DNA of 64,000 bases, taken from NCBI GenBank assembly GCA_029547205.1, contig JAKPPT010000092.1:24626-88625 (forward strand), read 5' to 3'. The notes under the pieces are model-generated. The model was not told where the DNA came from. It did not search any database and saw nothing but the letters and a program-made list of their open reading frames with translations. The translations under genes were made by a program, and so were the position numbers. Source of the DNA: Spirochaetota bacterium. Lineage in GTDB: Bacteria > Spirochaetota > Spirochaetia > Treponematales > UBA12059. This document shows positions 35,464 through 63,645 of the stretch, one piece after another. The first letter of the stretch is position 1. Each line of letters opens with the position of its first letter.

Positions 35464-37398
35464 CTAGTTTTGCTCTAAAAAATGTTCACGGATAAAAGCA
35501 GCATATGCTGGCAACAACATAAGTTCTTCATGTGTACCAAAGCCGACTACCTTTCCTCTATCCAAGAACAGTATTTTGTCTACATACTGCAGCGTAGAGA
35601 GCCGGTGTGATACAATAATAAATGTCAGATTCTGTGCAAACGCATTGAGTTCATTCATGAGACGCTCTTCGTTTGCTGCATCAAGACTCGCTGTAATATC
35701 ATCAAAAACCATAAGCTCTGGTTTCCTGGCTATTGCGCGAGCTATAGCCATCCGCTGTTTTTGTCCACCAGAAAGACTTAAGCCTCGCTGTCCCACAACG
35801 GTAAGTTCTCTATCGGTAAAGTTAGCGACTTCATCGCTCATCTGGGATATACGTAAGGCTTGATTGAATACCGTGTCGTTCGGTTCATCAATAAAAAAAT
35901 CTATATTTTCCTTAAGCGTTCCAGAAAACAAAAGAGCTTCCTGCGGGACATACCCTATTTTTTTTGCATATGTTTCTGTATCGATTGCATCTAGCGGTAC
36001 GCCATTTATTTTTACCATACCTGAATCTGGAGGCAGCAAGCCGAGCAATACTTTAATGAGCGTCGATTTACCTGAGCCTACTGGACCAATAACCCCAAGT
36101 CGTTCACCCTTTGTTACTCTAAAACTTACCCCATCGAGCGCTTTTTCTACACGCCCCGGATAAGTGAACGATACTTCATTAAAATCGATTGTAGCTATAT
36201 CTATTGCTATTGTTTTCTCCTGAGGTGCGATACCTGGCACCGATACTCCGCCCTGCACCTGGATACCTGGCACCGGAACACTGCCCTCTAGCGGTACGTT
36301 GCCCTGCACCTGGATACCTGGCACCGATACGCCGCCCTGCACATGGATACCTGGCACCGGGTCCTTTTCCGAAGCGCTTTTTCCTGGTACCGGAAAGCTC
36401 GCCATCTCTTCCAGCCTATCAATATTTACAAAAGCTTTTTTGCCATATACGAAGAGCTGTGGTATATCCAGAATTGGATAAATGAGCATCATGAGGTATG
36501 TATAGAACGCATAAAACGTTCCGATGCTTATTTTTCCTCTCACCGCCATTAAGCCGCCGGCAAATACAATACCTACTTGAGCAACGAGGTCAATGTACTG
36601 ATAGATAAGGTGCAGAATCACATCGAGTTTTGCTGCAGTCATTTCGGTTTTCCAGCGTTTTTGCAACACCTCATTAAAAAACCTTCGATATTTATCCTCG
36701 CAGGCATACGCTTTGATAATTCGCACACCCGAAAAGCTCATTTCAAGCTGTTCATTGACCTCACTCACAGCTTTTTCGTTTTTCCTGTAAACATCATATA
36801 CCTTATCAGATGTTACCCAGAAGACTGCCAGCATGAGCGGCAAGGGAATGAGCGAAAAAAGCGTCAGCTTTGGACTAATGAGCATCATTGCAATGAGACA
36901 AAACAGCACTTTACTGATTGATTCCACTGCGCGAAAAATTCCTGAACACAAAAACCACGACAGCTTTGGAAAATCATAGAGATCGCTCGTCAGCCGTGTA
37001 ACAATATCACCCGTAGCAAATTCTGAAAAAAACTTATAATTCTTTTCAAGAATTTTCTTAAAAAATTTCATTCGGAGCAAATGTTCAAAAACAGAGTTTG
37101 TCATGCCACGTATTGCAGGAAAAAATGAGGCAATAAAACCACCAAATCCCACTGCAATTAAAAGCATTAAGAGTCTATCTATTTCCAACATCGGGTCGGT
37201 TGTGCCAGGATGCTCCAAAAGCCGTTGGATAGTATCAAGCAACAATTTAGAAATATATGGAAGCAACACCGCCACCGCACTCGAAATTAATGTGAGTACA
37301 AATAATAGTGCTACAAGTCCTTTTTTCTCACTCCAGAGTTTTCTAATCCAGGCAATATGATTAATGTTCAGCTGTTTGTAGTGTATTGTATCTGACAT
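35464..37398 (-). CDS. ABC exporter, fused permease/ATPase (MsbA-type), with repeat-derived linker insert
   Basis: Six-TM domain, then GPVGSGKST, LSGGQKQR and LMVFDD. ATG 37398 is preceded by GGAGGAGGAG. The linker carries VPGIHVQGGVSVPGIQVQG... repeats. Confidence 0.9.
   Translation of the reverse strand: MSDTIHYKQLNINHIAWIRKLWSEKKGLVALLFVLTLISSAVAVLLPYISKLLLDTIQRLLEHPGTTDPMLEIDRLLMLLIAVGFGGFIASFFPAIRGMTNSVFEHLLRMKFFKKILEKNYKFFSEFATGDIVTRLTSDLYDFPKLSWFLCSGIFRAVESISKVLFCLIAMMLISPKLTLFSLIPLPLMLAVFWVTSDKVYDVYRKNEKAVSEVNEQLEMSFSGVRIIKAYACEDKYRRFFNEVLQKRWKTEMTAAKLDVILHLIYQYIDLVAQVGIVFAGGLMAVRGKISIGTFYAFYTYLMMLIYPILDIPQLFVYGKKAFVNIDRLEEMASFPVPGKSASEKDPVPGIHVQGGVSVPGIQVQGNVPLEGSVPVPGIQVQGGVSVPGIAPQEKTIAIDIATIDFNEVSFTYPGRVEKALDGVSFRVTKGERLGVIGPVGSGKSTLIKVLLGLLPPDSGMVKINGVPLDAIDTETYAKKIGYVPQEALLFSGTLKENIDFFIDEPNDTVFNQALRISQMSDEVANFTDRELTVVGQRGLSLSGGQKQRMAIARAIARKPELMVFDDITASLDAANEERLMNELNAFAQNLTFIIVSHRLSTLQYVDKILFLDRGKVVGFGTHEELMLLPAYAAFIREHFLEQN
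36229..36393. repeat. In-CDS copies of GATACCTGGCACC (4 exact, 1 degenerate)
   Basis: Copies start at 36229, 36262, 36313 and 36346. Spacings are 33, 51 and 33 nt, all multiples of 3. Confidence 0.9.
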
Positions 37399-39215: not shown

Positions 39216-39392
39216 ATCTTGTCTCCAAACCTGCATACGATGCGGCACAATGCGGTAATCGGCATATCTTGTCTCCAAACCTGCATACGATGCGGCACAA
39301 TGCGGTAATCGGTACCAGGTATCCAATGCATGCTGTAATTCTGTACCAGGTATTGTGCAGTACCAGGTGCCAGGTTTTCTTAAATCTAGCAT
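39213..39392. repeat. 50-bp tandem duplication (x2) followed by four degenerate core-motif copies
   Basis: Unit catatcttgtctccaaacctgcatacgatgcggcacaatgcggtaatcgg at 39213-39262 and 39263-39312. It is followed by GGTACCAGGTATC, TGTACCAGGTATT and AGTACCAGGTGCCAGGTTTTC. Confidence 0.85.
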
Positions 39393-42631: not shown

Positions 42632-44086
42632 ATGAATAACGATCAGCAACAAAACATTTCTACTCCAAGTCAAACTATACTCAAACACAACAAATTCTGG
42701 CTTACAGTAGAAGGCGCTGCATCATCTGTATATCTCATTTTAACACAGGGTGCTCTTTTTACTGCTATTGCGATCTATTTCAAACTTACGACATTCTGGC
42801 TTTCTGTTACCACTGCATTTCCACTTGTGTTCCAGGTATTCCAGCTTATTGCTCCAACCATTATTAAACGGTCAAAAAACAGAGTAAGGCTGATGATTAT
42901 TTTCAATGCTGGCCGATTCATCTGGTTTATTCCGCTTGCAACTTCGCTCTTTGGCTTTTCATCTGCCTTAGAATTCATTGTGATTTTTGCAGTGAGCCAG
43001 CTCGCAAACGCTCTTGCTGGCAATGTGTGGGTGGGATTAAGCCGGGACCTCATTCCAGAACACGAACGCGGAAAATTTCTTGGGAGAAGAAATGTTGCAA
43101 TCAGCATTACCACAATGATTTCGACATATATCTATACTGCTATTCTCGATATACTCAGCAAACCTTTATCCATCATTATAACTATACTCATTGGCATGAT
43201 TGCTACAATCATTTCAATCATTGCCACGTTCCCAATTCGAGATATCAGTCTCCAGGAAATCAGCCAACAAAGCACAGGAAACCTGGCACCAGGAACAACA
43301 TTCGAAGAAAAATCGGCTGGAAACCTGGCACCAGGAACAAATAAACAAAAAACAGATTCTATAAAATCAAACTTGGTTTATTTATTTAGCTACAACAAGC
43401 AGTTGCTCCAGGATAGCAACATCAAACGATTTGTAATTGCAATGTTCGCGTGGAACTTTATTCTTCAACTAACTGCTCCGTTTTTTGCATATCACCAGAT
43501 CACCAATCTTTCTATGTCGATGCGATTGATCGGAATTACTTCCATCCTTACGAGTCTTCTTTCCATAATTTTTTACAGGATTTGGGGTGTTTTAGGTGAT
43601 AAACTTGGCCATAAATCAGTATTGGTGACAGGTATCAATATCGTTAGCCTTATCCCTATGCTATGGTTCTTTATGGGAAAACCGCTTTGGCCATACATGA
43701 TGGGTGTTGATGTACTCTTAACCGGACTTGGATGGTCAGCTATCGATCTTGGCATTTTAACCTTTGGAATGGAAATCGGTGGTAAAAACTCCAGTGCATG
43801 CTTTGCTCTCGCTAATGCAGGAGCGGGCATCAGCGGACTCGCTGGAGCTGTAGTAGGAGGCTTCCTGGGACAAAAACTTAAGCCAATAAACCTGACACTC
43901 TGGTCTTTCGAAATCAATGGTCTTCAATTTTTATTTCTTGTTGGTGGACTTTTACGGTTTTTAGGTCTTGCTCTCTTCAAAAAAGTACAGGCAGCTAACT
44001 ATGCAAAACCAGGTGTCATGGTTACGAATGTGCTTTCAATTATTGCACGACGCTTTGCAATCCGTCCCGCTGAACTTGATGAGTAA
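42632..44086 (+). CDS. MFS transporter with repeat-derived central-loop insert
   Basis: 484 aa with multiple TM helices. The central loop contains GNLAPGT twice. Confidence 0.7.
   Translation: MNNDQQQNISTPSQTILKHNKFWLTVEGAASSVYLILTQGALFTAIAIYFKLTTFWLSVTTAFPLVFQVFQLIAPTIIKRSKNRVRLMIIFNAGRFIWFIPLATSLFGFSSALEFIVIFAVSQLANALAGNVWVGLSRDLIPEHERGKFLGRRNVAISITTMISTYIYTAILDILSKPLSIIITILIGMIATIISIIATFPIRDISLQEISQQSTGNLAPGTTFEEKSAGNLAPGTNKQKTDSIKSNLVYLFSYNKQLLQDSNIKRFVIAMFAWNFILQLTAPFFAYHQITNLSMSMRLIGITSILTSLLSIIFYRIWGVLGDKLGHKSVLVTGINIVSLIPMLWFFMGKPLWPYMMGVDVLLTGLGWSAIDLGILTFGMEIGGKNSSACFALANAGAGISGLAGAVVGGFLGQKLKPINLTLWSFEINGLQFLFLVGGLLRFLGLALFKKVQAANYAKPGVMVTNVLSIIARRFAIRPAELDE
43277..43340. repeat. 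Two in-CDS copies of GGAAACCTGGCACCAGGAACAA
   Basis: Identical 22-mers at 43277 and 43319, 42 nt apart. They contain the perfect palindrome CCTGGCACCAGG. Confidence 0.9.
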
Positions 44087-49476: not shown

Positions 49477-49727
49477 GAAACCTGGCACCGCAATCTATCG
49501 ATACCTGGCACTGCAAAGTTCAAATCAGTCCAAAGGGAACCCTGACACCGCTTGCACAGCCAGAACGCGCCCGCTGACTGAAACATGGGGAAACCTGGCA
49601 CCGCAGACACTTTCCGCAGGCACTTTAGGAAACCAAGGGCTCGCTTTTGATACCTGGCACCTAACTGGCTAATGGCTCATGGCTTGTTATACCTGGCACC
49701 TAACTGGCTACTGGCTCATGGCTTGTT
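49477..49727. repeat. Intergenic repeat cluster A (~6 copies, CCTGGCACC orientation)
   Basis: GAAACCTGGCACCGC appears twice and GATACCTGGCACTGC once. A 39-bp unit, ATACCTGGCACCTAACTGGCTA(A/C)TGGCTCATGGCTTGTT, appears twice. Confidence 0.9.
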
Positions 49728-50700: not shown

Positions 50701-52563
50701 TTATTCCTCCGTCAATCGAGTTCCCCTGAATACCTTTTCAACTATTTGCGCAGGACTTTCAGTTGTACCAGAATCTTCTATCTCATGAGATTCTTGACTA
50801 TGCTCGGTTGAATTTTGCACAACATATGCATGTATTTGAATAACTCGATTAAACACTTTTTGTAAAATAGGATTGATTACCGAACTTTCTGCATTAATTT
50901 TATCTGCCTCAAAATTTGAAACACAGGATACTTCTAACCTGTCACCCTTTATCGACCAATCTTCTGTTCTGGAAAGAATCGCATTAAGCATCAAATTTTG
51001 CTTACCCAGTGCAGTAATTACCCTCTCCTTTTCAGCTATTGCAGTATCAGTAGCAGAATCTGACTGTTCAGAAATATAACCACTGGAATCTACACTTTTG
51101 CCGCGAGAAACCGCGATTGAAACTGCGCCGATGCCTGGTTTAACTGCACTGGTGCCAGGTTTCCCATCACCGATGCCAGGTTTAGTTGCGCTAGCAGTGC
51201 TAACTGTACTGGTACCAGGTTTTGAATCGACTGCTGATGCACCTCGGCTACTACCCACCATGTTGGCCTCGCTGGCCAGTTCAACGGTGCCAGGTTTAGT
51301 TGCGCTGGAAACTGCGCTGGTGCCAGGTTTCCCATCAGGTTTATTTGATTTATCCACTGAAGAAGCTTGAGAACTCAATGAGATTAGTTTTTCTGCAATT
51401 CCACTTGCGTTTTGAGTATTCCCTTCACTAAGAGCATGTTTCAAATTGGTTAAGATTTCAAAAATCTCAGAACGTGAAATAAGCGCTCGTATTTCACAGA
51501 GCATTACCAATGCAAGTTCTATTTCATATCGGGGGTTAACGCTGTACCGCATGTTTCTATAGATATCAAGAAGCACAGCAAGCATCCGTTCCAGGTGTCG
51601 TGTTTCGAGCGCTGACACTTGTTCCGGCACTGATTCTTTTGAAAACCCTAAAAGTTCCTGTTTCTCGACACCAGCTTTTATAAAAAGGAGCGTACGAACA
51701 TATTGAATAGTATCAACTAAGAGCTGCTCAATTGAAACACCTGAAGATACAATTGATTCAACAAGTTCGATTGTTTTAGCCTTATCTCCTTGTGCTACCG
51801 TGCTTATCAGCATACCAATTCGTTCAGAACCGACAATACCTAGTTTATCCTGAATTACCGACAGCCTGATATGTCCCTCAGAAAATGAAGCCACTTGATC
51901 AAACATGGTATACGCATCGCGGAGAGAACCAGTTGCCTCTCGCGCTATCCACATGAGCGCATCATCATCAGCCACAATACCTAAATCCTGCGCTGCCGAT
52001 GCAAGCCTTTCCTTAATAACAGCAAGCGGAATCAATCTAAAAACAAATTGCTGACACCGGCTGCGGATGGTAGCTGGTACCTTATGCAGTTCAGTCGTTG
52101 CAAATATAAAAACAATATATGGCGGAGGTTCTTCGATAGTTTTCAACAGTGCATTAAAGGCACTGTTAGAGAGCATGTGTACTTCATCAATAATGTAGAT
52201 TTTATATTTAGAGAAGTTAGGCGGGAAAAGCACCTCATCTTTAATTTGACGTACATTATCAACTGACGTGTTGGACGCACCATCAATTTCAATAACATCC
52301 AATGACGCACCTTTGGTGATAGCATGACACGAATTGCATACCCCGCATGGTTCTGCGGTTGGCCCTCGTTCACAATTGAGAGATTTTGCAAGTATTCGTG
52401 CTGTACTTGTTTTACCGCAACCTCGAGGACCAGAGAAAAGATATGCATGCGCTATCCTTCCCGATTCTATTGAAGCCTTGAGCGTAATCGAAACAAAATC
52501 CTGTCCCGCCAGCTCATCAAAATTCTGAGGCCGCTTGCGGTTTGCTGTCACTTCATACGCCAT
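50701..52563 (-). CDS. dnaX: DNA polymerase III subunit gamma/tau, with repeat-derived insert
   Basis: GPRGCGKTS, zinc module CERGPTAEPCGVCNSC, and DEVHML. The variable region carries KPGT repeats. Confidence 0.93.
   Translation of the reverse strand: MAYEVTANRKRPQNFDELAGQDFVSITLKASIESGRIAHAYLFSGPRGCGKTSTARILAKSLNCERGPTAEPCGVCNSCHAITKGASLDVIEIDGASNTSVDNVRQIKDEVLFPPNFSKYKIYIIDEVHMLSNSAFNALLKTIEEPPPYIVFIFATTELHKVPATIRSRCQQFVFRLIPLAVIKERLASAAQDLGIVADDDALMWIAREATGSLRDAYTMFDQVASFSEGHIRLSVIQDKLGIVGSERIGMLISTVAQGDKAKTIELVESIVSSGVSIEQLLVDTIQYVRTLLFIKAGVEKQELLGFSKESVPEQVSALETRHLERMLAVLLDIYRNMRYSVNPRYEIELALVMLCEIRALISRSEIFEILTNLKHALSEGNTQNASGIAEKLISLSSQASSVDKSNKPDGKPGTSAVSSATKPGTVELASEANMVGSSRGASAVDSKPGTSTVSTASATKPGIGDGKPGTSAVKPGIGAVSIAVSRGKSVDSSGYISEQSDSATDTAIAEKERVITALGKQNLMLNAILSRTEDWSIKGDRLEVSCVSNFEADKINAESSVINPILQKVFNRVIQIHAYVVQNSTEHSQESHEIEDSGTTESPAQIVEKVFRGTRLTEE
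51130..51331. repeat. Six in-CDS motif copies inside dnaX
   Basis: GATGCCTGGTTTA 51130, GGTGCCAGGTTTC 51151, GATGCCAGGTTTA 51172, GGTACCAGGTTTT 51211, GGTGCCAGGTTTA 51286, GGTGCCAGGTTTC 51319. Confidence 0.9.
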
Positions 52564-52579
52564 GCGTTTAGCATATCAT

Positions 52580-53070
52580 GGTGCCAGGTTTATAGTAAAC
52601 TAGGCAACAGGTTATTGTTATTTTTGTTTTTTTGGTACCAGGTATCAGATTTTGTTTGCTGCGCCAAGCCATTGGCGAAAACCTTCGGTGCCAGGAAAAC
52701 CTTCGGTGCCAGGTATCTAATAGCTGAATGTTTCATGAAAACCATTGGTGCCAGGTAATACATGGCCAAGTCTTTGAGAAGATTTTAGGTGTCAAGTTTC
52801 CCTAGCATATAGGTTTATGATAACATTTTCCCAGCATGCAAATGCACATGGCCAAGTATGCGGTGCCAGGTTTCTGATAGTTAAGTATACGGTGCCAGGT
52901 TTCTGATAGCTACCAGGTTTCTGATAGCTATAGCTAAGTATAGCTAAGTATGCGGTGCCAGGTTTCTGATAGCTAAAATATTGGATTTATGACACGTTTT
53001 ATTGACTACACGTAATCCGACAAGCAGTCCGGTGCCAGGTATCTCTAGATACGGTGCCAGGTATCTCTAG
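52580..53070. repeat. Intergenic repeat cluster B (~12 copies, GGTGCCAGG orientation)
   Basis: Begins 17 nt upstream of the dnaX ATG. Includes local tandems such as CGGTGCCAGGTTTCTGATAGCTA and CGGTGCCAGGTATCTCTAGATA (x2). Confidence 0.9.
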
Positions 53071-53159: not shown

Positions 53160-53292
53160 GTGGGTTCCTGCAACCATAAGGTCAGGCTTGGCATGGCACA
53201 AGATCATTCTGCTTACCGTTGCTTCCTTCCGGACCTGGCGGGGTTAGGCAGCGAACCTTTGCATGGAGCCTGACCATATTGTTGCAGGAAAA
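53160..53292 (-). ncRNA. ffs: Signal recognition particle RNA (small/4.5S type)
   Basis: The minus strand reads ...CCAGGUCCGGAAGGAAGCAACGGUAAGCAG..., matching the conserved domain IV core. The flanking arms UUCCUGCAAC..GGUCAGGCU and AGCCUGACC..GUUGCAGGAA pair into one long hairpin. Classic position upstream of dnaX. Confidence 0.8.
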
Positions 53293-53360
53293 TAGTACCG
53301 CCCATTTTGATATTAGTAGTCTTGCTATCAGTTATTAGCGGCTATTGATATTTTAAAATA

Positions 53361-53448
53361 CGGAGAGAGAGGGATTTGAACCCTCGGTGCCCTTTAGGAG
53401 CACACACGACTTCCAATCGTGCACCTTCGGCCGCTCGGTCATCTCTCC
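53361..53448 (-). tRNA. tRNA-Ser (anticodon GGA)
   Basis: Minus strand: GGAGAGA acceptor stem, anticodon stem CACGA/TCGTG with loop TTGGAAG, long variable arm, and T-arm GGTTCAAATCC. CCA is not encoded. Confidence 0.88.
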
Positions 53449-53630
53449 AAAATCAGTCTTGATAATAACAAAGCAAGCCACTTTTGGCAAGCCAATGAGC
53501 ATTAAAACAAGCCATTAGATCAAAAAAGCGTGAATCTTACCGAAGTTGAAACAATATCTAAAATTTACTAAAGATTTTGGTCATTGAAATGACCACTCAT
53601 AAAAGGTTTTAATGCAAAGATAAAAGATAA

Positions 53631-54173
53631 TTATGTTGCAATAACTGAACTAAAGTCATAGTTTTCTTGAGAAAATTTTTCATATAGATTTTTAATTTCA
53701 TCGCTTATCCAATTTAAAAATATTTTAAAGCCCTTTTTAAAAAATAACAAACCACTCCAAAACCACTCGTCTGGCCTTTTTACCATTTTTGCTTTCACAG
53801 GATTTAAAATTATATATTTCAAAACACGTTCTACATCCTGTATTCTCATCAACGGCTCTGAAAAATATCTACCAGCCCAAAAATGTCCTACTAAATCGTT
53901 AATTGCATTAAATTTCTTTGCAAACGTTACTAAAAGCCTTTGCATTATCTTAGGAAGCTCCTTACAATCCCTTGGTTTAATAAGCAGATGAATATGATTA
54001 TCCATTAAAGTAAAACCTTCTACATTAAACTGATACTCTTTTTGCAACTTTTTTAATATTTTCATAAACATCTTTTTTAGACCAGAACGTTGCAGAAAGT
54101 AAGTTTGATAATTCGTTCGCGCTGTAATATGATACGTTGCCCCTGGAATTAGCAATCTCGGTTTTCTTGGCAT
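53631..54173 (-). CDS. rayT: REP-associated tyrosine transposase (RAYT; IS200/IS605-like Y1 HUH family)
   Basis: 180 aa. YHITARTN, HUH motif DNHIHLLIKP, GHFWAGRYFSEP, and the catalytic-Tyr motif KYIILNPVKAKMV. Single gene with no IS ends or tnpB. Visibly more AT-rich than its neighbours. Confidence 0.8.
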   Translation of the reverse strand: MPRKPRLLIPGATYHITARTNYQTYFLQRSGLKKMFMKILKKLQKEYQFNVEGFTLMDNHIHLLIKPRDCKELPKIMQRLLVTFAKKFNAINDLVGHFWAGRYFSEPLMRIQDVERVLKYIILNPVKAKMVKRPDEWFWSGLLFFKKGFKIFLNWISDEIKNLYEKFSQENYDFSSVIAT

Positions 54174-54307: not shown

Positions 54308-54469
54308 GAAACCTGACACCATAAATCCAGAAACCTGACACCATAATTTTTTAAGTTCTAGTTTTGGTGGCAGGTTTCTAATTTTCTACAAGAAGTGCGC
54401 TTATTGGTGCTTGTGAAGCATTTAGCTGTGATTCGTACCATGTTTCCATGTTTCTCGGTGCCAGGTTTC
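54308..54469. repeat. Repeat cluster C upstream of RAYT (2 copies in each orientation)
   Basis: GAAACCTGACACC at 54308 and 54330. GGTGGCAGGTTTC at 54366 and GGTGCCAGGTTTC at 54457. Confidence 0.85.
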
Positions 54470-55762: not shown

Positions 55763-55915
55763 GGTGCCAGGTATCAGGTATATCAAATATTGTCAGGTAT
55801 CAGGTATTTCAAATATTGTTATGTAATGATGTATTGTTGAGCAGCCAGCGAGTGCCAGGAATATTACCAAACTTATTTCCAGACTTATTTCAGCGGTGCC
55901 AGGTTTCGCCCCTGG
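55763..55915. repeat. Intergenic repeat cluster D
   Basis: CGGTGCCAGGTATCAGGTAT, GTCAGGTATCAGGTAT, GAGTGCCAGGAAT, and CGGTGCCAGGTTTCGCCCCTGG at 55894-55915. Confidence 0.85.
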
Positions 55916-56159
55916 ATTTTTCTCTACGGGTGCGTCGATATTTGACATACCAAGTATAAAATCAGTAAACTAACGGTTGCATAACAGCTGCGATTTGGCT
56001 TAGTTTTAATTTTTATTTAGTTTTACCCTATTTTGCCGAGTATAAAATCAGTAAATTAAAAAACCGTGCATTTATCGATAATCCATTATAAAATTACATA
56101 AGACGAGGCTTGATTCAACACAGGCCTGGATATTTTGTTCGATTGGAGCTATTGATAGT

Positions 56160-57797: not shown

Positions 57798-59221
57798 AAT
57801 TAGCAACTCACTAGCGCCTCGCAGAAACCAAAACCTGGCACCTTTCTCCCCATTCTCTCAGATCCAACGAAACATGGCACCCTTTGGCCCTCCGCAACCG
57901 GGGACCCTTTATTGAGAAACCTGACACCGTTCTCCCCATTCTCTCAGACCCAACGAAACATGGCACCGTTCTCGCAGACCTCGCCGAAGAGCTGCGCCTA
58001 TCAAACCGAAACCTGGCACCATTCCCGCAAACCTAAAACCTGGAACCTGGAAACCTGGCACCGATCTCGCAGTTCTCAAAACCTGGAAACCTGGCACCGT
58101 TCTCGCAAACCTAAAACCTGGAACCTGGAAACCTGGCACCGATCTCGCAGTCCTCGCCGAAGAGCTGCGCCCATCAAACCGAAACCTGGCACCGTTCTCG
58201 CAGACCTCGCCTGGAAACCTGGCACCTTTCTCCCCATTCTCTCAGACCCAACGAAACCTGACACCTTTCTCGCAGTCCTCGCCGATTAAGAGCCGCGCCC
58301 ATCAAACCGAAACCTGAGGAAACCAACCTGGAAACCTGGCGCCCTTTATTGGGAAACCTGGCACCGTTCTCGTAGTCCCGATTCGAAACCTGGCACCCTT
58401 TGGCCCTCTGCAAATTAGCAACTCACTAGCGCCTCGCAGAAACCAAAACCTGGAAACCTGGAACCAAATGAAACATGGAAAGCAACCTGGAACCCGGAAA
58501 CCTGGAAACCAACCTGGAACCCGGAAACCTGGCACCAAATACTTTGAGACGCCCACCGCAACATGGGACCCCTTATTGAGAAACCTGGCACCTTTCTCCC
58601 CGTTCTCTCAGACCCAACGAAACCTGGCACCCTTTGGCCCTCTGCAACCTGGGACCCGGAAACCTGGAAACCTGGCGCCCTTTATTGGGAAACCTGGCAC
58701 CGTTCTCGTAGTCCCGATTCGAAACCTGGCACCATTCCCGCAGACATCGCCGATTAAGAGCTGCGCCCATCAAACCGAAACCTGGCACCCTTTGGCCCTC
58801 CGCAACCTGGCGCCCTTTATTGAGAAACCTGGCACCGTTCTCGCAGACATCGCCGATTAAGAGCTGCGCCTATCAAACCGAAACCTGACACCATGGCACT
58901 TGATTTCTTTCAAACCGAAACCTGGCACCGTTCTCGCAGTCCCGATTCGAAAACCTGGCACCGTTCTCGCAGTCCCGATTCGAAAACCTGGCACCGTTCT
59001 CGCAGTCCTCGCCGAAGAGCTGCACCCATCAAACCGAAACATGGAACCTGGCACCCTTTGGCCCTCCGCAACCTGGGACCCCTTATTGAGAAACCTGGCA
59101 CCGTTCTCGCAGTCCCGATTCGAAACCTGACACCATGGCACTTGATTTCTTTCAAACCGAAACCTGGCACCACGGCACTTCAGGCACTTATTTCTTAAGG
59201 CACCATGGCACTTGATTTCTT
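57798..59221. repeat. ~1.4 kb single-orientation array of GAAACCTGGCACC modules (about 30-35 copies by hand count)
   Basis: Every module starts with the core and carries one of about four tail types. Includes a 33-bp tandem (x3) at ~58915-59013. A higher-order repeat, AAATTAGCAACTCACTAGCGCCTCGCAGAAACCAAAACCTGG, occurs at 57798 and 58413. Confidence 0.95.
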
Positions 59222-59349: not shown

Positions 59350-59901
59350 ATGACAAATAACGATATTGTCCCTGGTTTCGATGATGAAAAAGATGACAGC
59401 CTCAAAATACGTCTTCAAAAAGTCGATGAAGTGGAAAACTGTATCGCTATGTATCTTACAGGTTATATCGATACATACAATTCTATTTTCTTCCAGAAAC
59501 GGATCAATAAAGCTATTGAAGCAGGCTTTAATAAGCTCATTTTTAACTGTGCAGCTTTAAACTACGTTTCATCAACCGGTATTGGATCTTTCACAGCATT
59601 TCTTAAATCGGTTAAACCTCGCGGTGGAGATATAGTACTATTCGAAATTCAACCAAAAGTGTACGAAGTATTCCAACTCCTGGGCTTTTCACAATTTTTT
59701 AATATCCGAGACAGCCTTGATGATGCTATTCTCTTTTTCAAGCAAGGCACCACGGTATCAACACAATCTGTATTCCCTAAAATTTTTAACTGCCCTATCT
59801 GCAATAAAAAGCTCAAAGCTGCAAAACCCGGCAGATTCCGCTGTTCGGAATGTAAAACAATTCTTGCAATTGATAATCAGGGACAGGTTTTCCTGGGTTA
59901 A
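59350..59901 (+). CDS. STAS-domain (anti-sigma-factor antagonist-like) protein with C-terminal zinc ribbon
   Basis: 183 aa. NYVSSTGIGSF resembles the SpoIIAA phospho-Ser loop. C-terminal CPIC...CSEC. Confidence 0.65.
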   Translation: MTNNDIVPGFDDEKDDSLKIRLQKVDEVENCIAMYLTGYIDTYNSIFFQKRINKAIEAGFNKLIFNCAALNYVSSTGIGSFTAFLKSVKPRGGDIVLFEIQPKVYEVFQLLGFSQFFNIRDSLDDAILFFKQGTTVSTQSVFPKIFNCPICNKKLKAAKPGRFRCSECKTILAIDNQGQVFLG

Positions 59902-59923
59902 CTACTATACAAGGAGCTAAAGC

Positions 59924-60310
59924 ATGGCTGATATAAACACGATAGAAACCTTTCTCATCGACAACAATATTGGTTTTAAAGAGCTCGACCCAACCACACT
60001 CTATATCGAAGATGCAGCTAATTCAATTCCTGGACTCTTTATCGCTGTAAACGATCCAATCGTCGTCGTCAAAGCACGGGTTATGACACTGCCAAACGCT
60101 CCTAACATTCAGTTTTTCAAAAAACTGCTTGAATTAAATGCAAAAGATCTACCTCATGGGGCATATGGCCTCGATGGTGATGATGTTGTGCTTGTCGATA
60201 CCTTAGAACTTAACACACTCGACAAAGAGGAACTCATGGCATCGATAGATTCAATCAGTTTTGCACTGGTAAACCATTATTCAATCTTAAAAAAAACGAT
60301 TACTGCATAA
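59924..60310 (+). CDS. YbjN/CesT-like small acidic protein
   Basis: 128 aa. Composition and length are typical of YbjN-type chaperone-like proteins. Weak assignment. Confidence 0.4.
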   Translation: MADINTIETFLIDNNIGFKELDPTTLYIEDAANSIPGLFIAVNDPIVVVKARVMTLPNAPNIQFFKKLLELNAKDLPHGAYGLDGDDVVLVDTLELNTLDKEELMASIDSISFALVNHYSILKKTITA

Positions 60311-60340
60311 ACATGCAGACATAGTAAAGGGGGCATTACA

Positions 60341-61042
60341 ATGGGAATATTTGATCGTCTGAAAACCTTAATTTCTTCAAATATCAATGACTTGATTTCC
60401 AAAGCAGAGAATCCAGAAAAAATGCTTAACCAGCTCATTCTCGATATGAATCAGCAAATGGTTGAATCAAAAAAAGCTGTAGCAATGGCTATTGCTGATG
60501 AAAAACGGCTTGAGCGTGAAATGCTCGAACAAAAGCGCCAGGCAGAGGATTGGGAAAAGAAAGCCATGCTCGCAGTCAAAGCTGGCAGAGATGATCTTGC
60601 AAAAGAGGCACTGCTCAGAAAGGCTGAGGCAGAGAATTACTACAATCAACTCAAACCACAGTGGGAATCTCAACGAGCATCGGTTGAAAAACTCAAGGAG
60701 TCACTGCGAGAACTTCAAAACAAAATTGATGAAGCAAGCCGTAAGAAAAATATTCTTATTGCCCGAGCTAAACGAGCAGAAGCACAGGAAAAAATTCAAA
60801 AAACTATGGGCTCGCTTCAAAACAACAAAAGCGCTTTTGAAACATTTGACCGTATGGCCAAAAAAGTTGATGAAATGGAAGCTAGAATTGAGGCTCAAGC
60901 TGAACTAGCTGATCTTTCAAGTTCTGCATCACTAGAAAAAGAATTTGCTAAGCTAGGCAATTCTTCTGCTTCAGCAGACCTGTTGCTCGAAGAACTCAAA
61001 CAAAAAATGCAGCAGGAAGGCCAGACCGGCACTCAAAATTAA
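60341..61042 (+). CDS. pspA: PspA/IM30 family protein
   Basis: MGIFDRLKTLISSNINDLISKAENPEKMLNQLILDM is the family's N-terminal signature. The rest is a long coiled coil. Confidence 0.88.
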   Translation: MGIFDRLKTLISSNINDLISKAENPEKMLNQLILDMNQQMVESKKAVAMAIADEKRLEREMLEQKRQAEDWEKKAMLAVKAGRDDLAKEALLRKAEAENYYNQLKPQWESQRASVEKLKESLRELQNKIDEASRKKNILIARAKRAEAQEKIQKTMGSLQNNKSAFETFDRMAKKVDEMEARIEAQAELADLSSSASLEKEFAKLGNSSASADLLLEELKQKMQQEGQTGTQN

Positions 61043-61162
61043 GCCCCGGTATTCTTCTTAGCACCGCAAGTAAATTACCTCATTAAAAATACGAGCCAAC
61101 AGCCATATGAGCCAACAGCCATGCCTTAATAAAATGCCCTAATAAAAATCTTGGAGCCGTTT

Positions 61163-61580
61163 GGTGCCAGGTTTCAAAATAGCCATTTGGTGCCAGGTTT
61201 CGTTCCAAGTGCAGATATAGAGAAAAACCGGTGCCAGGTATCGCTATAAATCCCAAAGTCTGTGACAAGCAAGAAGGCCGGTGCCAGGTTTCCCATTTGT
61301 GTCATTTGGAGGTGCCAGGTATCCCCACTGGTACCCTACAGCTTCAACAAAAGTTAGCAATGGAGCGATTGGTGCCAGGTATCCCCACTGGTACCCCACA
61401 GCTTCAACAAAAGTTAGCAATGGAGCGATTGGTGCCAGGTATCAGTATGGGATTGGTGCCAGGTATCGCTATACCAGGTTTCCCATTTGTGTCATTTGGA
61501 GGTGCCAGGTATCCCCACTGGTGCCCCACAGCTTCAACAAAAGTTAGCAATGGAGCGATTGGTGCCAGGTATCAGTATGG
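61163..61580. repeat. Intergenic repeat cluster F (~11 copies, GGTGCCAGG orientation) with 60-bp tandem units
   Basis: The 60-bp unit GGTGCCAGGTATCCCCACTGGTACCC(T/C)ACAGCTTCAACAAAAGTTAGCAATGGAGCGATT occurs at 61311, 61371 and 61501. Confidence 0.92.
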
Positions 61581-61625
61581 AGCGGCCTATTTACAAAATA
61601 CCGTAATACTGTACAATGAAGATTA

Positions 61626-62798
61626 ATGAAATTTGCCTCAAGAATATTGCACCCTGCGGTATATATTTGCTGGTTTCTGGTTTTAGTTTTCTCAGCTTGC
61701 AAACAAGCAGAAACCACCACAAAACCTCCGAATCCTCATGAATCGGTCAAATTTTCTGTGACACTATCAAAAACAGAACCTGAAATTGTCTATTTTGATG
61801 CAGACAGGCCACTCAACGAAGCTTTTTCTCTTACGAAACCTGGCACCAAAGCGTTATTACCTTATCCACTCCAAAAGCGGCCTGCGCTTTTTGTTCCGTT
61901 GGACAAATCCTCAATACTTCTCTTAGTTAACAAAGTAGGCTTTGTTCAACTCACTTTTACAGCAAACGCAGATGTATCTACAACGATACAATTTGATTCT
62001 CCAGTCTCTGTTGAAGGTGTACCAGTAAACCAGTACTCTGCAGGTTCAGTTTGGCAAACGAATAATCACCAATATCTACTATTGTATAAAGATCATGTAC
62101 TCGACACTGACTGGGCAGCAACAGTTTTATTTGAATTTTCTGGTGACACTGTCTCACGGATAGAAATCCCACCACATCCTGAAAATAAACGCTATGAACC
62201 GTACTGGATTTTCCCAACAAGCGAAAACACCTGGCTTATCCAATATCGTTACATAATTGGAGACCGATCGTATACAACATATGCTTCATGGGACCGTAAA
62301 CACAATAAACTTTCGGAGCTCACACGCACCTCTTTTGAACGCCAACTCACTCCAATCACCTTTGAAAAAGCTCCTGCACCCATTCGTCTCATAGCTGAAC
62401 ATATATCAGAACCCGTTCTATTAGAGTACCGTGATAGCAATGGAGCCATTCATTATATCAATAACAAAAATCTCGATGATGCTGTTCTTGGCATCGCAGA
62501 AACCAACAATTACGGCACTTTTGTCCTTCTGGAAGATGGCCGATACTGGATCGCTCGGGGACAGGTACCACCATCAGTTTCTTCATCTGAAAATCAAACA
62601 ATCACTCCGAAACAACAGCAATCAGCAATATCCTTTTCAGGAACACCACCAGTGACTATAGGGCAGGCTACTGTACCTGTTGATGATGTTCATTTTAGAA
62701 ATGCAATATTGACTGATACCGTGTTTATCAGCACCTGGGAAGAAAATGGTTTTCCAGAGACGGGAATGAGCGGTCTCTTTCTTTTTCAGCTTCCGTAA
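61626..62798 (+). CDS. Hypothetical lipoprotein
   Basis: 390 aa with a lipobox-like LVFSAC. Contains one exact motif copy at 61835-61847, read as KPGT. Confidence 0.55.
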   Translation: MKFASRILHPAVYICWFLVLVFSACKQAETTTKPPNPHESVKFSVTLSKTEPEIVYFDADRPLNEAFSLTKPGTKALLPYPLQKRPALFVPLDKSSILLLVNKVGFVQLTFTANADVSTTIQFDSPVSVEGVPVNQYSAGSVWQTNNHQYLLLYKDHVLDTDWAATVLFEFSGDTVSRIEIPPHPENKRYEPYWIFPTSENTWLIQYRYIIGDRSYTTYASWDRKHNKLSELTRTSFERQLTPITFEKAPAPIRLIAEHISEPVLLEYRDSNGAIHYINNKNLDDAVLGIAETNNYGTFVLLEDGRYWIARGQVPPSVSSSENQTITPKQQQSAISFSGTPPVTIGQATVPVDDVHFRNAILTDTVFISTWEENGFPETGMSGLFLFQLP

Positions 62799-62868: not shown

Positions 62869-63645
62869 ATGAAATATCGGTGCCAGGTATCAAAAAAGGT
62901 TTTCCGTTTATCAAAACATGCAATCAAAAAATATTTGTGCATCCTTGCTATTTTTTTAACATCGTATTCCGTTTTTGCCTTTGATATTACTCATGCAGGC
63001 GGATCACTCGGTGTGCTCATCATCAATAATACGGTTCCCGAATCAGCACCGAACCCGGTTGTAAATACCATTGGTGGATTTGCCAATTTTACATTTACTT
63101 CGGTGCCAGGTTTCGCCCCTGGTTCTTCGGTGCCAGGTTTCGCCCCTGGTTTTTTCCTCTCAACAGCTCTCGACATACTCTGGCTCAATTATGAAAACCG
63201 AGACGGTATTGCTGTGCCTACAGAAACAGAAACTGGTAACGGCAATAACGTTTTTGTTATCGGTTTACTGCTCGATGTACCGTTAGGATATGTATTTTAT
63301 TTTGGACCGCCTGTTACCGAATCATTACCGCATCGATTTTCAGCTACCTTACTTGCAGGCACATCTTTTTTATTTCGTATCTGCATGAATGGTGATACAA
63401 CCGAAGCTTATGCAAGCGTGATGGAACAAAACCGCATTGCTGTTGCCCAGTACCTCTGGGGGAATGGTAGGTGGTTTTATCCAATGATAAGCGGGAAATT
63501 CGGTATTGTGCTTCAAGAAACGTTTACATTCACAGTAGGCGCAAAGTGGTACATCCCCATATTCAATCTTTGGACAACCGATGATAATTCATTTTTCAAT
63601 GCAAGTATGCTGGCAATTCAGCTTGCAATGCAAATTTCCCTGTAA
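62869..63645 (+). CDS. Hypothetical exported/OM protein with repeat-derived segments
   Basis: 258 aa with a hydrophobic N-terminus. Motif copies at codons 3-8 (YRCQVS) and in SVPGFAPGSSVPGFAPG. Confidence 0.5.
   Translation: MKYRCQVSKKVFRLSKHAIKKYLCILAIFLTSYSVFAFDITHAGGSLGVLIINNTVPESAPNPVVNTIGGFANFTFTSVPGFAPGSSVPGFAPGFFLSTALDILWLNYENRDGIAVPTETETGNGNNVFVIGLLLDVPLGYVFYFGPPVTESLPHRFSATLLAGTSFLFRICMNGDTTEAYASVMEQNRIAVAQYLWGNGRWFYPMISGKFGIVLQETFTFTVGAKWYIPIFNLWTTDDNSFFNASMLAIQLAMQISL
63099..63149. repeat. Two in-CDS copies of TTCGGTGCCAGGTTTCGCCCCTGG
   Basis: Copies at 63099-63122 and 63126-63149, 27 nt apart. Their 22-mer core is identical to the intergenic copy at 55894-55915. Confidence 0.9.

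What the first reader, a model, noticed from the sequence alone, without database searches (positions are those of the whole stretch)
63099..63149. An identical 22-mer is shared between intergenic DNA and a coding sequence
CGGTGCCAGGTTTCGCCCCTGG is identical at 55894-55915 (intergenic) and twice inside ORF 62869-63645 (63101-63122 and 63128-63149). In the ORF it encodes SVPGFAPGSSVPGFAPG. The same ORF also carries a copy at codons 3-8 (62879-62891, YRCQVS). Perfect identity at unrelated loci argues for recent copy-and-paste rather than convergent protein sequence.
Basis: seen in the sequence. Interest (0 to 1): 0.6.

Follow-up and report, generated by a model that had tools for sequence, protein, structure and literature searches.

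The report
Short selfish repeat inside membrane-protein gene
The shared 22-mer is one copy of a 13-base repeat, GGTGCCAGGT(T/A)TC, that crowds about 27 kb of an uncultured spirochaete genome around a REP-type transposase gene and has also settled, in frame, in flexible loops of several real proteins.

Summary
CGGTGCCAGGTTTCGCCCCTGG occurs exactly three times, at 55894, 63101 and 63128, with none expected by chance.

It is not a private link between two loci. Its first 14 bases are a sharply bounded 13-bp repeat, GGTGCCAGGT(T/A)TC, plus one preceding C. The 10-bp core occurs 97 times in the window (at most 1 mismatch; 1.6 expected). Nearly all copies lie between 36 and 63 kb, as same-strand arrays that differ in length between strains.

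ORF 62869-63645 is a real gene. It has homologues in Spirochaetia, conserved gene order and dN/dS of about 0.08. Its predicted fold is an OmpA/OmpW-like outer-membrane barrel.

The two in-ORF 22-mers are a perfect 27-bp in-frame tandem duplication (63098-63151) in a disordered inter-strand loop. The duplication is polymorphic: two assemblies of the same species carry one unit. The sister species also has one copy, so the loop copy is old and only the duplication is recent.

The same repeat sits in frame in linkers of DnaX, an ABC transporter and an MFS transporter.

A single-locus REP-associated tyrosine transposase gene (53631-54173) lies in the middle of the dense zone. It is the likely but unproven driver. 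Most copies lack the palindrome that defines REPs.

The parts
63098..63151 (+). Perfect 27-bp x 2 in-frame tandem duplication (CTTCGGTGCCAGGTTTCGCCCCTGGTT) holding both in-ORF 22-mers. It encodes SVPGFAPGS twice, within aa 77-94 of the protein.
   Evidence: TRF reports period 27, 2.0 copies, 100% matches. One-unit alleles occur in two assemblies of the same species (L195, L196). The sister species has one unit. The segment falls in the pLDDT<50 stretch aa 79-90, between two beta-strands.
62879..62891 (+). 13-mer GGTGCCAGGTATC read as codons 4-8 (RCQVS), in the basic n-region of the signal peptide.
   Evidence: It is present at the same place in all relatives, including L004 as GGTACCAGGTGT. 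Residues 1-15 have low pLDDT and the signal helix spans 16-35.
62869..63645 (+). Real gene for a 258-aa secreted protein with an 8-stranded OmpA/OmpW/OmpX-like beta-barrel.
   Evidence: Ten homologues with E from 1e-38 to 1e-171. Gene order is conserved. dN/dS is 0.07-0.09. The AF2 model has pLDDT 80.8. Foldseek matches OmpA-TM, OmpW and OmpX at E 2e-7 to 4e-5.
55894..55915 (+). Solo 22-mer copy in the divergent promoter region between the 343-aa gene (minus strand) and the MCP gene (plus strand).
   Evidence: It is present in all same-species strains that cover the site. It is absent from the sister species, where this spacer does not align.
53631..54173 (-). REP-associated tyrosine transposase (RAYT) gene, 180 aa, with a HUH motif (HIH) and the catalytic-Tyr motif LKYIILNPVK.
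   Evidence: NCBIfam NF047646 scores 87 bits against a cut-off of 80. Pfam Y1_Tnp E 4e-16. The best solved relative is E. coli TnpA-REP 4ER8. All 22 contigs read show the same neighbours. The sister species carries an in-frame TGA at codon 102.
54329..54379 (.). The only inverted doublet of the repeat in the window: 18-nt arms, 89% complementary, 15-nt spacer. It is a REP/REPIN-like hairpin about 160-200 bp upstream of the RAYT start.
   Evidence: As ssDNA it folds at -14.6 kcal/mol, z = -3.6. It is not conserved in the sister species.
57830..59171 (-). Largest array: about 38 core copies in a mosaic of 5-6 module types, between the MCP and STAS genes.
   Evidence: Its length is 1507, 1552 or 1585 bp in different strains. 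The sister species has only about 380 bp here.
61163..61573 (+). Array of 10 copies upstream of the DUF8086-barrel operon, including a 60-bp unit repeated about 4 times.
   Evidence: It is 539, 523 or 409 bp in different strains. The spacer is 35 bp with no copy in relative L197. L001-L003 carry variant GGTGACAGGT copies here.
52580..53065 (+). Array of 10 copies between the dnaX start and the SRP-RNA and tRNA-Ser genes.
49477..49700 (-). Array of 5 copies between the ABC-ATPase gene and recR.
51151..51331 (+). Five copies antisense to dnaX, translated as KPGT(S) in the domain III-IV linker (aa 412-472).
   Evidence: The DnaX alignment with the sister species is alignable everywhere except this linker. 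A 21-bp in-frame deletion between two copies occurs in strains L188 and L193, giving 613 vs 620 aa.
36229..36358 (-). Four sense copies in an ABC exporter, translated (S/P)VPGI, in the linker between the membrane and ATPase domains (aa 356-399).
   Evidence: The linker is about 50 aa longer than in the adjacent paralogue.
43278..43332 (-). Two antisense copies in an MFS transporter, translated NLAPG (aa 217-235, in the middle of the 484-aa protein).

Best explanation
The 22-mer is one variant of a short dispersed repeat whose conserved unit is the 13-mer GGTGCCAGGT(T/A)TC.

Shown:
- The unit is sharply bounded.
- It fills almost every intergenic spacer between about 49 and 63 kb as same-strand mosaic arrays.
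- The arrays change length between strains by loss or gain of whole units.
- The unit has also entered coding DNA, but only where extra flexible residues are tolerated: the loop and signal-peptide n-region of this outer-membrane barrel, and the linkers of DnaX, an ABC exporter and an MFS transporter.
- In this gene one copy was already in the loop before the split from the sister species.
- In the window's species a 27-bp unit around that copy was then duplicated in tandem. The duplication is still polymorphic.

Inferred:
- The duplication and the array length changes arise by replication slippage or unequal exchange between neighbouring copies.
- New sites are seeded by the RAYT (a Y1/HUH single-strand DNA transposase) encoded in the middle of the dense zone. 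On this view the 13-mer is the left arm of a REP palindrome that mostly survives as half-sites.
- The 22-mer is the form that keeps a loop and a stub of the right arm (CCAGG-TTTCGCC-CCTGG).
- The copy at 55894 and the loop copy descend from one such unit.

Rough confidence: membership of the family and the tandem duplication, about 0.95. Permissive-site insertions, about 0.85. RAYT as the driver, about 0.4.
For: Family and boundaries:
- There are 97 core matches against 1.6 expected.
- Information content drops to about 0 immediately outside the 13 bp.

Coding copies:
- Copies are read in different frames and orientations in different genes.
- Each lies in a linker or loop by Pfam coordinates and by the AF2 model.

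Gene reality.

History of the loop copy:
- It is absent in orthologues of 40-65% identity.
- There is one copy in the sister species.
- There are two perfect copies here.
- One-copy alleles occur in two 99.2-99.9% identical strains.

Slippage at the repeat:
- A 21-bp in-frame deletion between two copies occurs in dnaX of two strains.
- The arrays show reproducible alternative lengths.

RAYT link:
- The gene passes the curated RAYT model, and its best PDB relative is TnpA-REP.
- It occupies one fixed locus in all 22 contigs read.
- The window's most abundant 13-mer is in its 5' flank.
- The only hairpin-forming doublet lies just upstream of it.
- The dense zone (36-63 kb, about 90 copies) surrounds it. 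About 45 kb to the left and 9.6 kb to the right hold about 7 copies in total.
- The sister species has a nonsense-mutated RAYT and about 3-fold fewer copies in the syntenic 12 kb.
- In another metagenome-assembled contig (L047) the same CGGTGCCAGGTTT is the left arm of strong REP-type hairpins, z -4.6 to -5.9.
Against: - Most copies are not palindromic and have no complementary partner nearby.
- The arrays are direct, not alternating.
- No GTAG or CGTC tag is present.
- The doublet next to the RAYT is not conserved in the sister species.
- The correlation between an intact RAYT and larger arrays rests on a single species pair.
- A distant RAYT homologue locus (L182) has no repeats.
- Whole-genome distribution could not be seen.
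- Core conservation at orthologous sites, in coding and non-coding DNA alike, would also fit a selected binding site.
- Similarity between 55894 and the ORF beyond the 22 bases is not significant, so a direct copying event is not proven.
- The one-copy alleles come from short-read assemblies. Collapse of a 54-bp tandem repeat is unlikely but not excluded.
Confidence: 0.6

Rival explanations
1. The 13-mer is a functional recognition site. It could be a DNA-uptake-type signal or the binding site of a nucleoid or regulatory protein, kept and multiplied by selection or biased conversion. On this view the RAYT is a bystander and the copies in genes are maintained sites rather than junk.
For: The boundaries are sharp at 13 bp, with random flanks. 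At 7 alignable orthologous sites the 10-bp core differs at 3 of 70 positions and the flanks at 17 of 78 (Fisher p = 0.0017). All 3 core changes are at position 5. There are species 'dialects': GGTGCCAGGT here and GGTGACAGGT in the sister species. Three orthologous sites switch C/A in step with the dialect, two of them inside genes. The motif has no stop codon in any of the six frames.
Against: The density is extremely local: about 90 copies in 27 kb, then about 0.1 per kb on both sides. Thirty-eight copies packed into 1.3 kb is unlike known uptake sequences. No competence gene or candidate binding protein was found in the window. Relative L197 lacks the array entirely and has let the loop copy decay to GGTCACAGGT. 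Array length is not conserved even within the species.
Confidence: 0.15
2. There is no dedicated enzyme. The family is a local minisatellite system that spreads only by slippage, unequal crossing-over and short-patch gene conversion among nearby copies. The RAYT is coincidental.
For: The arrays behave as variable-number tandem repeats. The in-ORF event is a plain tandem duplication. The distribution is local. Copies lack the hairpins a Y1 transposase would need.
Against: Slippage cannot seed a 13-bp unit with unrelated flanks in separate genes up to 17 kb apart, on both strands. The same arm occurs in true REP hairpins in another genome. A curated-model RAYT in the centre of the zone, with the repeat in its flank, is the classic REP signature.
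Confidence: 0.2
3. The repeated peptide (S)VPGFAPG is a selected protein motif, and the DNA identity follows from protein-level convergence.
For: The in-ORF copies are in frame and encode a Pro/Gly-rich loop.
Against: The same DNA is read in other frames and in antisense elsewhere, and is mostly non-coding. The loop is absent in most orthologues and is disordered in the model.
Confidence: 0.01
4. The reverse complement (CTGGCACC) marks sigma-54 promoters (-24 element), so the arrays are promoter clusters.
For: CTGGCAC resembles the -24 consensus. One module gives TGGCAC-N5-TCGC. A sigma-54 activator gene lies downstream.
Against: None of the 74 CTGGCAC sites has TTGC at the -12 position, and only 13 have GC there. 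The conserved GAWACC side has no counterpart in the sigma-54 consensus. Many sites are inside genes.
Confidence: 0.01

Closest known systems
REP / REPIN elements with their RAYT (REPtrons; Nunvar 2010 PMC2817692; Bertels & Rainey 2011 PMC3116915; Bertels 2017 PMC5581495)
   Same: A single-locus Y1/HUH transposase of the RAYT type. The locally most abundant short oligomer lies in its flanking non-coding DNA. A hairpin-forming inverted doublet sits beside the gene. There are many non-autonomous copies and species-specific sequence variants.
   Different: The conserved unit is only 13 bp and is not palindromic. Copies form direct, same-strand arrays rather than inverted pairs. There is no GTAG or CGTC tag. 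In the 83 kb that could be seen, the copies are concentrated within about 27 kb around the RAYT rather than dispersed.
Intragenic REPs and Rickettsia palindromic elements (Di Nocera 2013 PMC3733652, which also cites RPE-1 in R. conorii genes; RPE unit length from general knowledge)
   Same: Selfish repeats inserted in frame into otherwise conserved genes, including replication genes. They sit at N-termini, loops and linkers, where they are tolerated and translated.
   Different: The units here are far shorter than RPEs (about 100-150 bp) and are not hairpins. They occur as small intragenic tandem arrays that vary in copy number between strains (dnaX 613 vs 620 aa; the barrel 249 vs 258 aa).
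Bacterial interspersed mosaic elements (BIMEs) of enterobacteria (PMC2817692)
   Same: Intergenic clusters built as mosaics of one core repeat plus a small set of other short modules in varying order.
   Different: BIMEs alternate REP orientation with regular spacing. These arrays are unidirectional with irregular 15-78 bp spacing.
DNA uptake sequences and their dialects (Neisseriaceae DUS, Pasteurellaceae USS; from general knowledge)
   Same: A sharply bounded motif of about 10-13 bp. It is present in genes in several frames. It differs by one base between sister species, and orthologous sites track the dialect.
   Different: Uptake sequences are spread at about 1 per kb genome-wide and do not form dense direct arrays. 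No competence link was found here.
Variable-number tandem repeats in surface-protein genes (from general knowledge)
   Same: An in-frame 27-bp unit present once or twice in different strains, in an exposed loop of an outer-membrane barrel.
   Different: Only two states were seen. The unit is seeded by a genome-wide repeat family rather than arising from the gene's own sequence. No evidence of phase or antigenic switching was found.

Membership tests
REP/REPIN-RAYT system | An adjacent gene for a RAYT-type Y1 (HUH) transposase | tested here: met
   NF047646 scores 87 bits against a cut-off of 80. Pfam Y1_Tnp. HIH and LKYIILNPVK motifs. Best PDB hit is 4ER8 TnpA-REP.
REP/REPIN-RAYT system | The most abundant short oligomer of the replicon occurs in the RAYT's flanking extragenic DNA | tested here: inconclusive
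   Met within the 64-kb window: GGTGCCAGGTTTC, 35 copies and the top 13-mer, lies in the 5' flank. The whole replicon could not be examined.
REP/REPIN-RAYT system | The repeat unit is a 20-40 nt imperfect palindrome that folds into a stem-loop | tested here: not met
   59 of 81 copies have no downstream complement of 4 nt or more, and none has more than 5 nt. Arrays and the 22-mer fold no better than shuffles. The only exceptions are the doublet at 54329-54379 (z -3.6) and the related hairpins in L047.
REP/REPIN-RAYT system | A conserved GTAG or CGTC tetranucleotide at one end of the unit | tested here: not met
   Neither occurs in the 13-mer or in the positions next to it (logo).
REP/REPIN-RAYT system | Units paired in inverted orientation (REPIN doublets or alternating BIMEs) | tested here: not met
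   All arrays are same-strand. There is one inverted doublet in the window.
REP/REPIN-RAYT system | RAYT present as a single, vertically inherited copy | tested here: inconclusive
   All 22 contigs read show the same neighbours. The sister species has a syntenic, pseudogenised copy. Complete genomes were not available.
DNA uptake sequence | Roughly even genome-wide density (about 1 per kb), in both orientations | tested here: not met
   About 90 copies between 36 and 63 kb, against about 7 copies in the other 55 kb or so that could be seen.
DNA uptake sequence | A cognate competence and uptake-receptor machinery | not tested
   None was seen among the window genes scanned.
In-frame intragenic selfish repeat (RPE-like or intragenic REP) | An insertion relative to orthologues that keeps the reading frame, at a structurally permissive site of a gene under purifying selection | tested here: met
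   The loop segment is absent in orthologues P0004-P0010. The unit is 27 bp, or 9 codons. The segment has pLDDT below 50 between strands. dN/dS is 0.08. The same holds for the DnaX linker.
Variable-number tandem repeat | Head-to-tail units whose number differs between strains | tested here: met
   The barrel gene has 1 or 2 units. dnaX shows a 21-bp difference. Arrays measure 1507/1552/1585 bp and 539/523/409 bp. The caveat is that these are short-read metagenome assemblies, and one apparent +100 bp was an N gap.
Sigma-54 promoter | GG at -24 and TTGC/GC at -12 with fixed spacing | tested here: not met
   0 of 74 sites have TTGC and 13 of 74 have GC at the -12 position.

The most novel reading that the evidence does not exclude
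A RAYT-linked repeat family that multiplies as a 13-bp non-palindromic half-REP. It builds unidirectional, strain-variable arrays confined to the chromosomal neighbourhood of its transposase gene. It also colonises the linkers of essential genes such as dnaX. Its core is held constant, and switched between species dialects, by concerted evolution. This would be a mode of REP/RAYT biology (local, direct, half-site) not covered by the REPIN model.
Probability: 0.3. Interest if true: 0.65.

Novelty: new variant of a known kind. Interest (0 to 1): 0.45.

Why it matters
Short selfish repeats inside genes are known. Here, one 64-kb stretch shows the whole life cycle side by side:
- a candidate transposase;
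- a hairpin form next to it;
- dozens of half-site copies in arrays that vary between strains;
- old solo copies fixed inside genes;
- a still-segregating in-frame duplication in an outer-membrane loop, and another in the DnaX linker.

If the RAYT link holds, REP-type systems can work with non-palindromic half-sites and act locally. That would bear on how RAYTs recognise DNA.

There are practical consequences too. These arrays break metagenome assemblies (N gaps) and generate spurious 'hypothetical protein' calls. They also create protein-length variants that could be mistaken for strain markers of functional significance.

Tried and rejected
1. Genome-collection scan for pairs of the 10-mer. 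Nearly all hits were unrelated GC-rich coding repeats. Only L047 was informative.
2. Metagenome scan for pairs of the 13-mer. Of 40 stretches, only one (L160) was from this organism, and it was the same locus. Genome-wide distribution therefore stayed unknown.
3. Protein search with concatenated translations of array ORFs, meant to find other arrays through spurious gene calls. There were no hits.
4. Literature search for the motif string on both strands. It returned only unrelated primer sequences.
5. Sigma-54 promoter reading. Rejected.
6. Hairpin or terminator reading of the 22-mer. The stem is 5-6 bp, at -3.6 kcal/mol, no better than shuffles. The terminator-like count in the region is below the shuffle expectation.
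7. Extended homology between 55894 and the ORF beyond 22 nt. Not significant.
8. A distant RAYT homologue locus (L182) examined for similar arrays. None found.
9. Viral contigs scanned for either dialect. None found.
10. Rfam scan of the window. It found only the SRP RNA and tRNA-Ser, and nothing in the arrays.
11. The apparent +100-bp array variant in GCA_035418525.1. It turned out to be a run of N.
Full report
OBSERVATION. The 22-mer CGGTGCCAGGTTTCGCCCCTGG is present exactly at 55894-55915, 63101-63122 and 63128-63149 on the + strand. None of 100 dinucleotide-preserving shuffles gave a single match. ORF 62869-63645 translates to a 258-aa protein in which the two copies encode SVPGFAPGSSVPGFAPG. 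A further copy of the first 13 bases, with A for T at position 11, lies at 62879-62891 and is read in another frame as RCQVS. Tandem Repeats Finder shows that the two in-ORF copies are a perfect 27-bp x 2.0 tandem repeat at 63098-63151.

THE 22-MER BELONGS TO A LARGE FAMILY. The 10-bp core GGTGCCAGGT occurs 97 times in the window at up to 1 mismatch, against 1.6 expected. Sixty-four of these are exact. Aligning all exact copies on the core shows that conservation extends only to the next three bases (T/A, T, C). It falls to zero information immediately on both sides. The unit is therefore the 13-mer GGTGCCAGGT(T/A)TC in free-varying context.

Copies are concentrated between 36 and 63 kb. They form same-strand arrays in almost every intergenic spacer from 49 to 63 kb:
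- 49477-49700;
- 52580-53065;
- 54311-54466;
- 57830-59171, with about 38 copies;
- 61163-61573.

The first 36 kb of the window hold 4 copies. A further 9 kb to the left holds 1 copy, and 9.6 kb to the right holds 2.

The arrays are mosaics of a few module types, each beginning with the 13-mer. Rfam finds no known RNA in them.

THE ORF IS A REAL GENE. It has ten homologues in Spirochaetia metagenome genomes (E 1e-38 to 1e-171). The gene order STAS-CesT-PspA-DUF8086-ORF-ThrE-ThrE-Alr is conserved. dN/dS is 0.07-0.09 against three relatives. AlphaFold2 gives pLDDT 80.8. Foldseek matches the OmpA transmembrane domain, OmpW, Ail, OmpX and NspA (E 2e-7 to 3e-4).

Only two segments of the model have pLDDT below 50. 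They are residues 1-15 and 79-90, exactly the parts encoded by the repeat. The loop copy lies between strands 64-76 and 94-111. The N-terminal copy lies in the basic n-region ahead of the signal helix at 16-35.

ATG 62869 is preceded by AGAGGAA and by a promoter-like TTGAAT-18-TATAGT. Both are conserved in relatives. The start is therefore upstream of the first copy.

HISTORY AT THIS LOCUS.
- Orthologues of 40-65% identity lack the loop segment.
- The sister species (85% aa identity, dS about 0.84) has one copy, GGTGCCAGGTTTCACGCCGGG, at the orthologous position.
- A third relative has two diverged copies.
- A fourth has one decayed copy, GGTCACAGGTTTC.
- The N-terminal copy is present in all relatives, even at 65% identity, as GGTACCAGGTGT.

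Within the window's species, the two-unit protein is indexed in 36-39 blocks of the assembly collection. Two assemblies that are 99.2-99.9% identical in DNA (L195, L196) carry an allele lacking exactly one 27-bp unit. The loop copy is therefore old. The tandem duplication is recent and still segregating.

The copy at 55894 is present in every strain of this species that covers the site. It lies in a spacer that does not align with the sister species. It shares 9 bases with the loop copy beyond the 13-mer, which chance does not explain. Similarity does not extend further, so the direction of copying cannot be told.

THE SAME REPEAT IN OTHER GENES. Each of the following falls between Pfam domains:
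- Four sense copies in the linker of an ABC exporter, between the membrane and ATPase domains (aa 356-399, read as VPGI).
- Five antisense copies in the DnaX domain III-IV linker (aa 412-472, read as KPGT).
- Two antisense copies in the middle of an MFS transporter (aa 217-235, read as NLAPG).

DnaX of the sister species aligns closely with the window's protein everywhere except this linker (81% identity overall). Two strains of the window's species have a 21-bp in-frame deletion whose ends lie in adjacent repeat copies, giving 613 vs 620 aa. Spacings between copies inside genes are all multiples of three. Those in the intergenic arrays are not.

DYNAMICS. Array lengths differ reproducibly between independent assemblies: 1507, 1552 or 1585 bp for the large array, and 539, 523 or 409 bp for the second. 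One apparent 100-bp insertion is a scaffold gap.

Between species the arrays do not align, while the flanking genes are 77-88% identical in DNA. The syntenic 12 kb holds 62 copies here and 19 in the sister species. In relative L197 the PspA-DUF8086 spacer is 35 bp with no copy.

The sister's copies are mostly GGTGACAGGT. At seven alignable orthologous sites the 10-bp core differs at 3 of 70 positions, all at position 5 (C here, A there). The flanks differ at 17 of 78 positions, p = 0.0017. Two of these three switches are inside genes.

A CANDIDATE DRIVER. ORF 53631-54173 (minus strand, 180 aa) passes NCBIfam's curated model for REP-associated tyrosine transposase, at 87 bits against a cut-off of 80. 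It also matches Pfam Y1_Tnp. It has the HUH and catalytic-Tyr motifs. Its best solved relative is E. coli TnpA-REP, 4ER8.

All 22 contigs read that carry it show the same neighbours. Its 5' flank contains the window's most abundant 13-mer. That flank also holds the only inverted doublet of the repeat: 54329-54379, with 18-nt arms, folding at z = -3.6.

The sister species has the gene at the same place with an in-frame TGA before the catalytic tyrosine, seen in the two assemblies aligned (L139, L141).

In an unrelated-labelled contig (L047), CGGTGCCAGGTTT is the left arm of three strong REP-type hairpins, CGGTGCCAGG-loop-CCTGGCTCCG, with z -4.6 to -5.9. Seen this way, the window's 22-mer is that hairpin with a truncated right arm (CCAGG-TTTCGCC-CCTGG).

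LIMITS OF THE RAYT LINK.
- Most copies have no complementary partner.
- The arrays and the 22-mer fold no better than shuffles.
- The arrays are direct, and there is no GTAG or CGTC tag.
- The doublet is not conserved in the sister species.
- A distant RAYT homologue has no such repeats.
- The whole genome could not be inspected.

The family therefore fails several defining features of REPs while resembling them in organisation. The RAYT link is an inference, at about 0.4.

RIVALS.
- A selected binding or uptake site is favoured by the sharp boundaries, core conservation and species dialects. It is disfavoured by the extreme local clustering and by the loss of arrays in relatives.
- Pure slippage explains array length changes and the 27-bp duplication. 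It cannot seed a 13-bp unit with unrelated flanks in separate genes on both strands.
- Protein-level convergence is excluded.
- Sigma-54 promoters are excluded.

VERDICT. It is one small facet of a dense, RAYT-centred family of 13-bp repeats that also inserts in frame into permissive protein segments. The event specific to this ORF is a recent, polymorphic 27-bp tandem duplication of an old insertion in an outer-membrane-barrel loop. It is not a fresh transfer from the intergenic site. Selfish repeats inside genes and REP/RAYT systems are both known. The non-palindromic, direct, locally confined form makes this a new variant of a known kind, of moderate interest.

Noticed in passing
window 53631-54173 (-): An intact RAYT (REP-associated tyrosine transposase) gene lies in the centre of the repeat-dense zone. 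The syntenic copy in the sister species has a premature TGA at codon 102.
   Followed up: yes
window 51121-51331 (dnaX linker); L188, L193: The essential clamp-loader gene dnaX carries five antisense repeat copies in its linker. Natural strains differ by a 21-bp in-frame unit (613 vs 620 aa).
   Followed up: yes
window 36229-36358 and 43278-43332: An ABC exporter linker (4 copies, read as VPGI) and the middle of an MFS transporter (2 antisense copies, read as NLAPG) also carry translated repeat copies. Orthologues were not compared.
   Followed up: partly
window 39213-39312 and 39311-39375: A perfect 50-bp x 2 tandem duplication and two repeat copies lie at the annotated 5' end of ABC gene 37422-39392. 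The Pfam membrane domain starts only at aa 91, so the true start may be downstream and these may be non-coding.
   Followed up: no
window 49643-49727, 55768-55819, 61089-61147: Other short tandem modules accompany the arrays. Examples are a 39-bp unit with AAGCCATGAGCCATTAGCCAGTTA and a 26-bp CAGGTATCAGGTATATCAAATATTGT x 2. Similar 'AAGCCA(T/A)T' words occur just downstream of the RAYT gene.
   Followed up: no
window 53177-53275 (-) and 53360-53449 (-): The SRP RNA and tRNA-Ser(GGA) genes sit between the RAYT gene and the 52580-53065 array, next to dnaX-ybaB-recR.
   Followed up: yes
L133 5953-6052 (= window ~58920); L186 in the dnaX linker: Public assemblies carry runs of N exactly inside the repeat arrays. 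The arrays break or confuse short-read assembly, so array-length differences need long-read confirmation.
   Followed up: partly
window 61231-61626 (+), 55793-55948 (-), and ORFs within 57800-59200: Gene callers annotate 51-131-aa 'hypothetical proteins' inside the arrays in several public assemblies. They are almost certainly spurious translations of the repeat.
   Followed up: partly
L047 1509-1685 (LVAX01000021.1, labelled Clostridiales bacterium Firm_18): Three strong REP-type hairpins use the same CGGTGCCAGGTTT arm, upstream of a DegT-family gene with a duplicated 5' end. The contig has GC 0.43 and may be mis-binned from a related spirochaete.
   Followed up: partly
window 49116 (ABC ATPase), 52580, 61835 (DUF8086 gene): Orthologous solo copies differ from the sister species only at core position 5 (C vs A), matching each species' dominant variant. 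At 61835 the sister species is itself polymorphic: L001 has A and L002 has C.
   Followed up: partly
window 59350-61042 and L133 13791-18295: A STAS / CesT-like / PspA (IM30) gene cluster lies upstream. A sigma-54 activator plus a hybrid histidine kinase lies downstream of the barrel-ThrE-Alr genes. No link to the repeat was examined.
   Followed up: no
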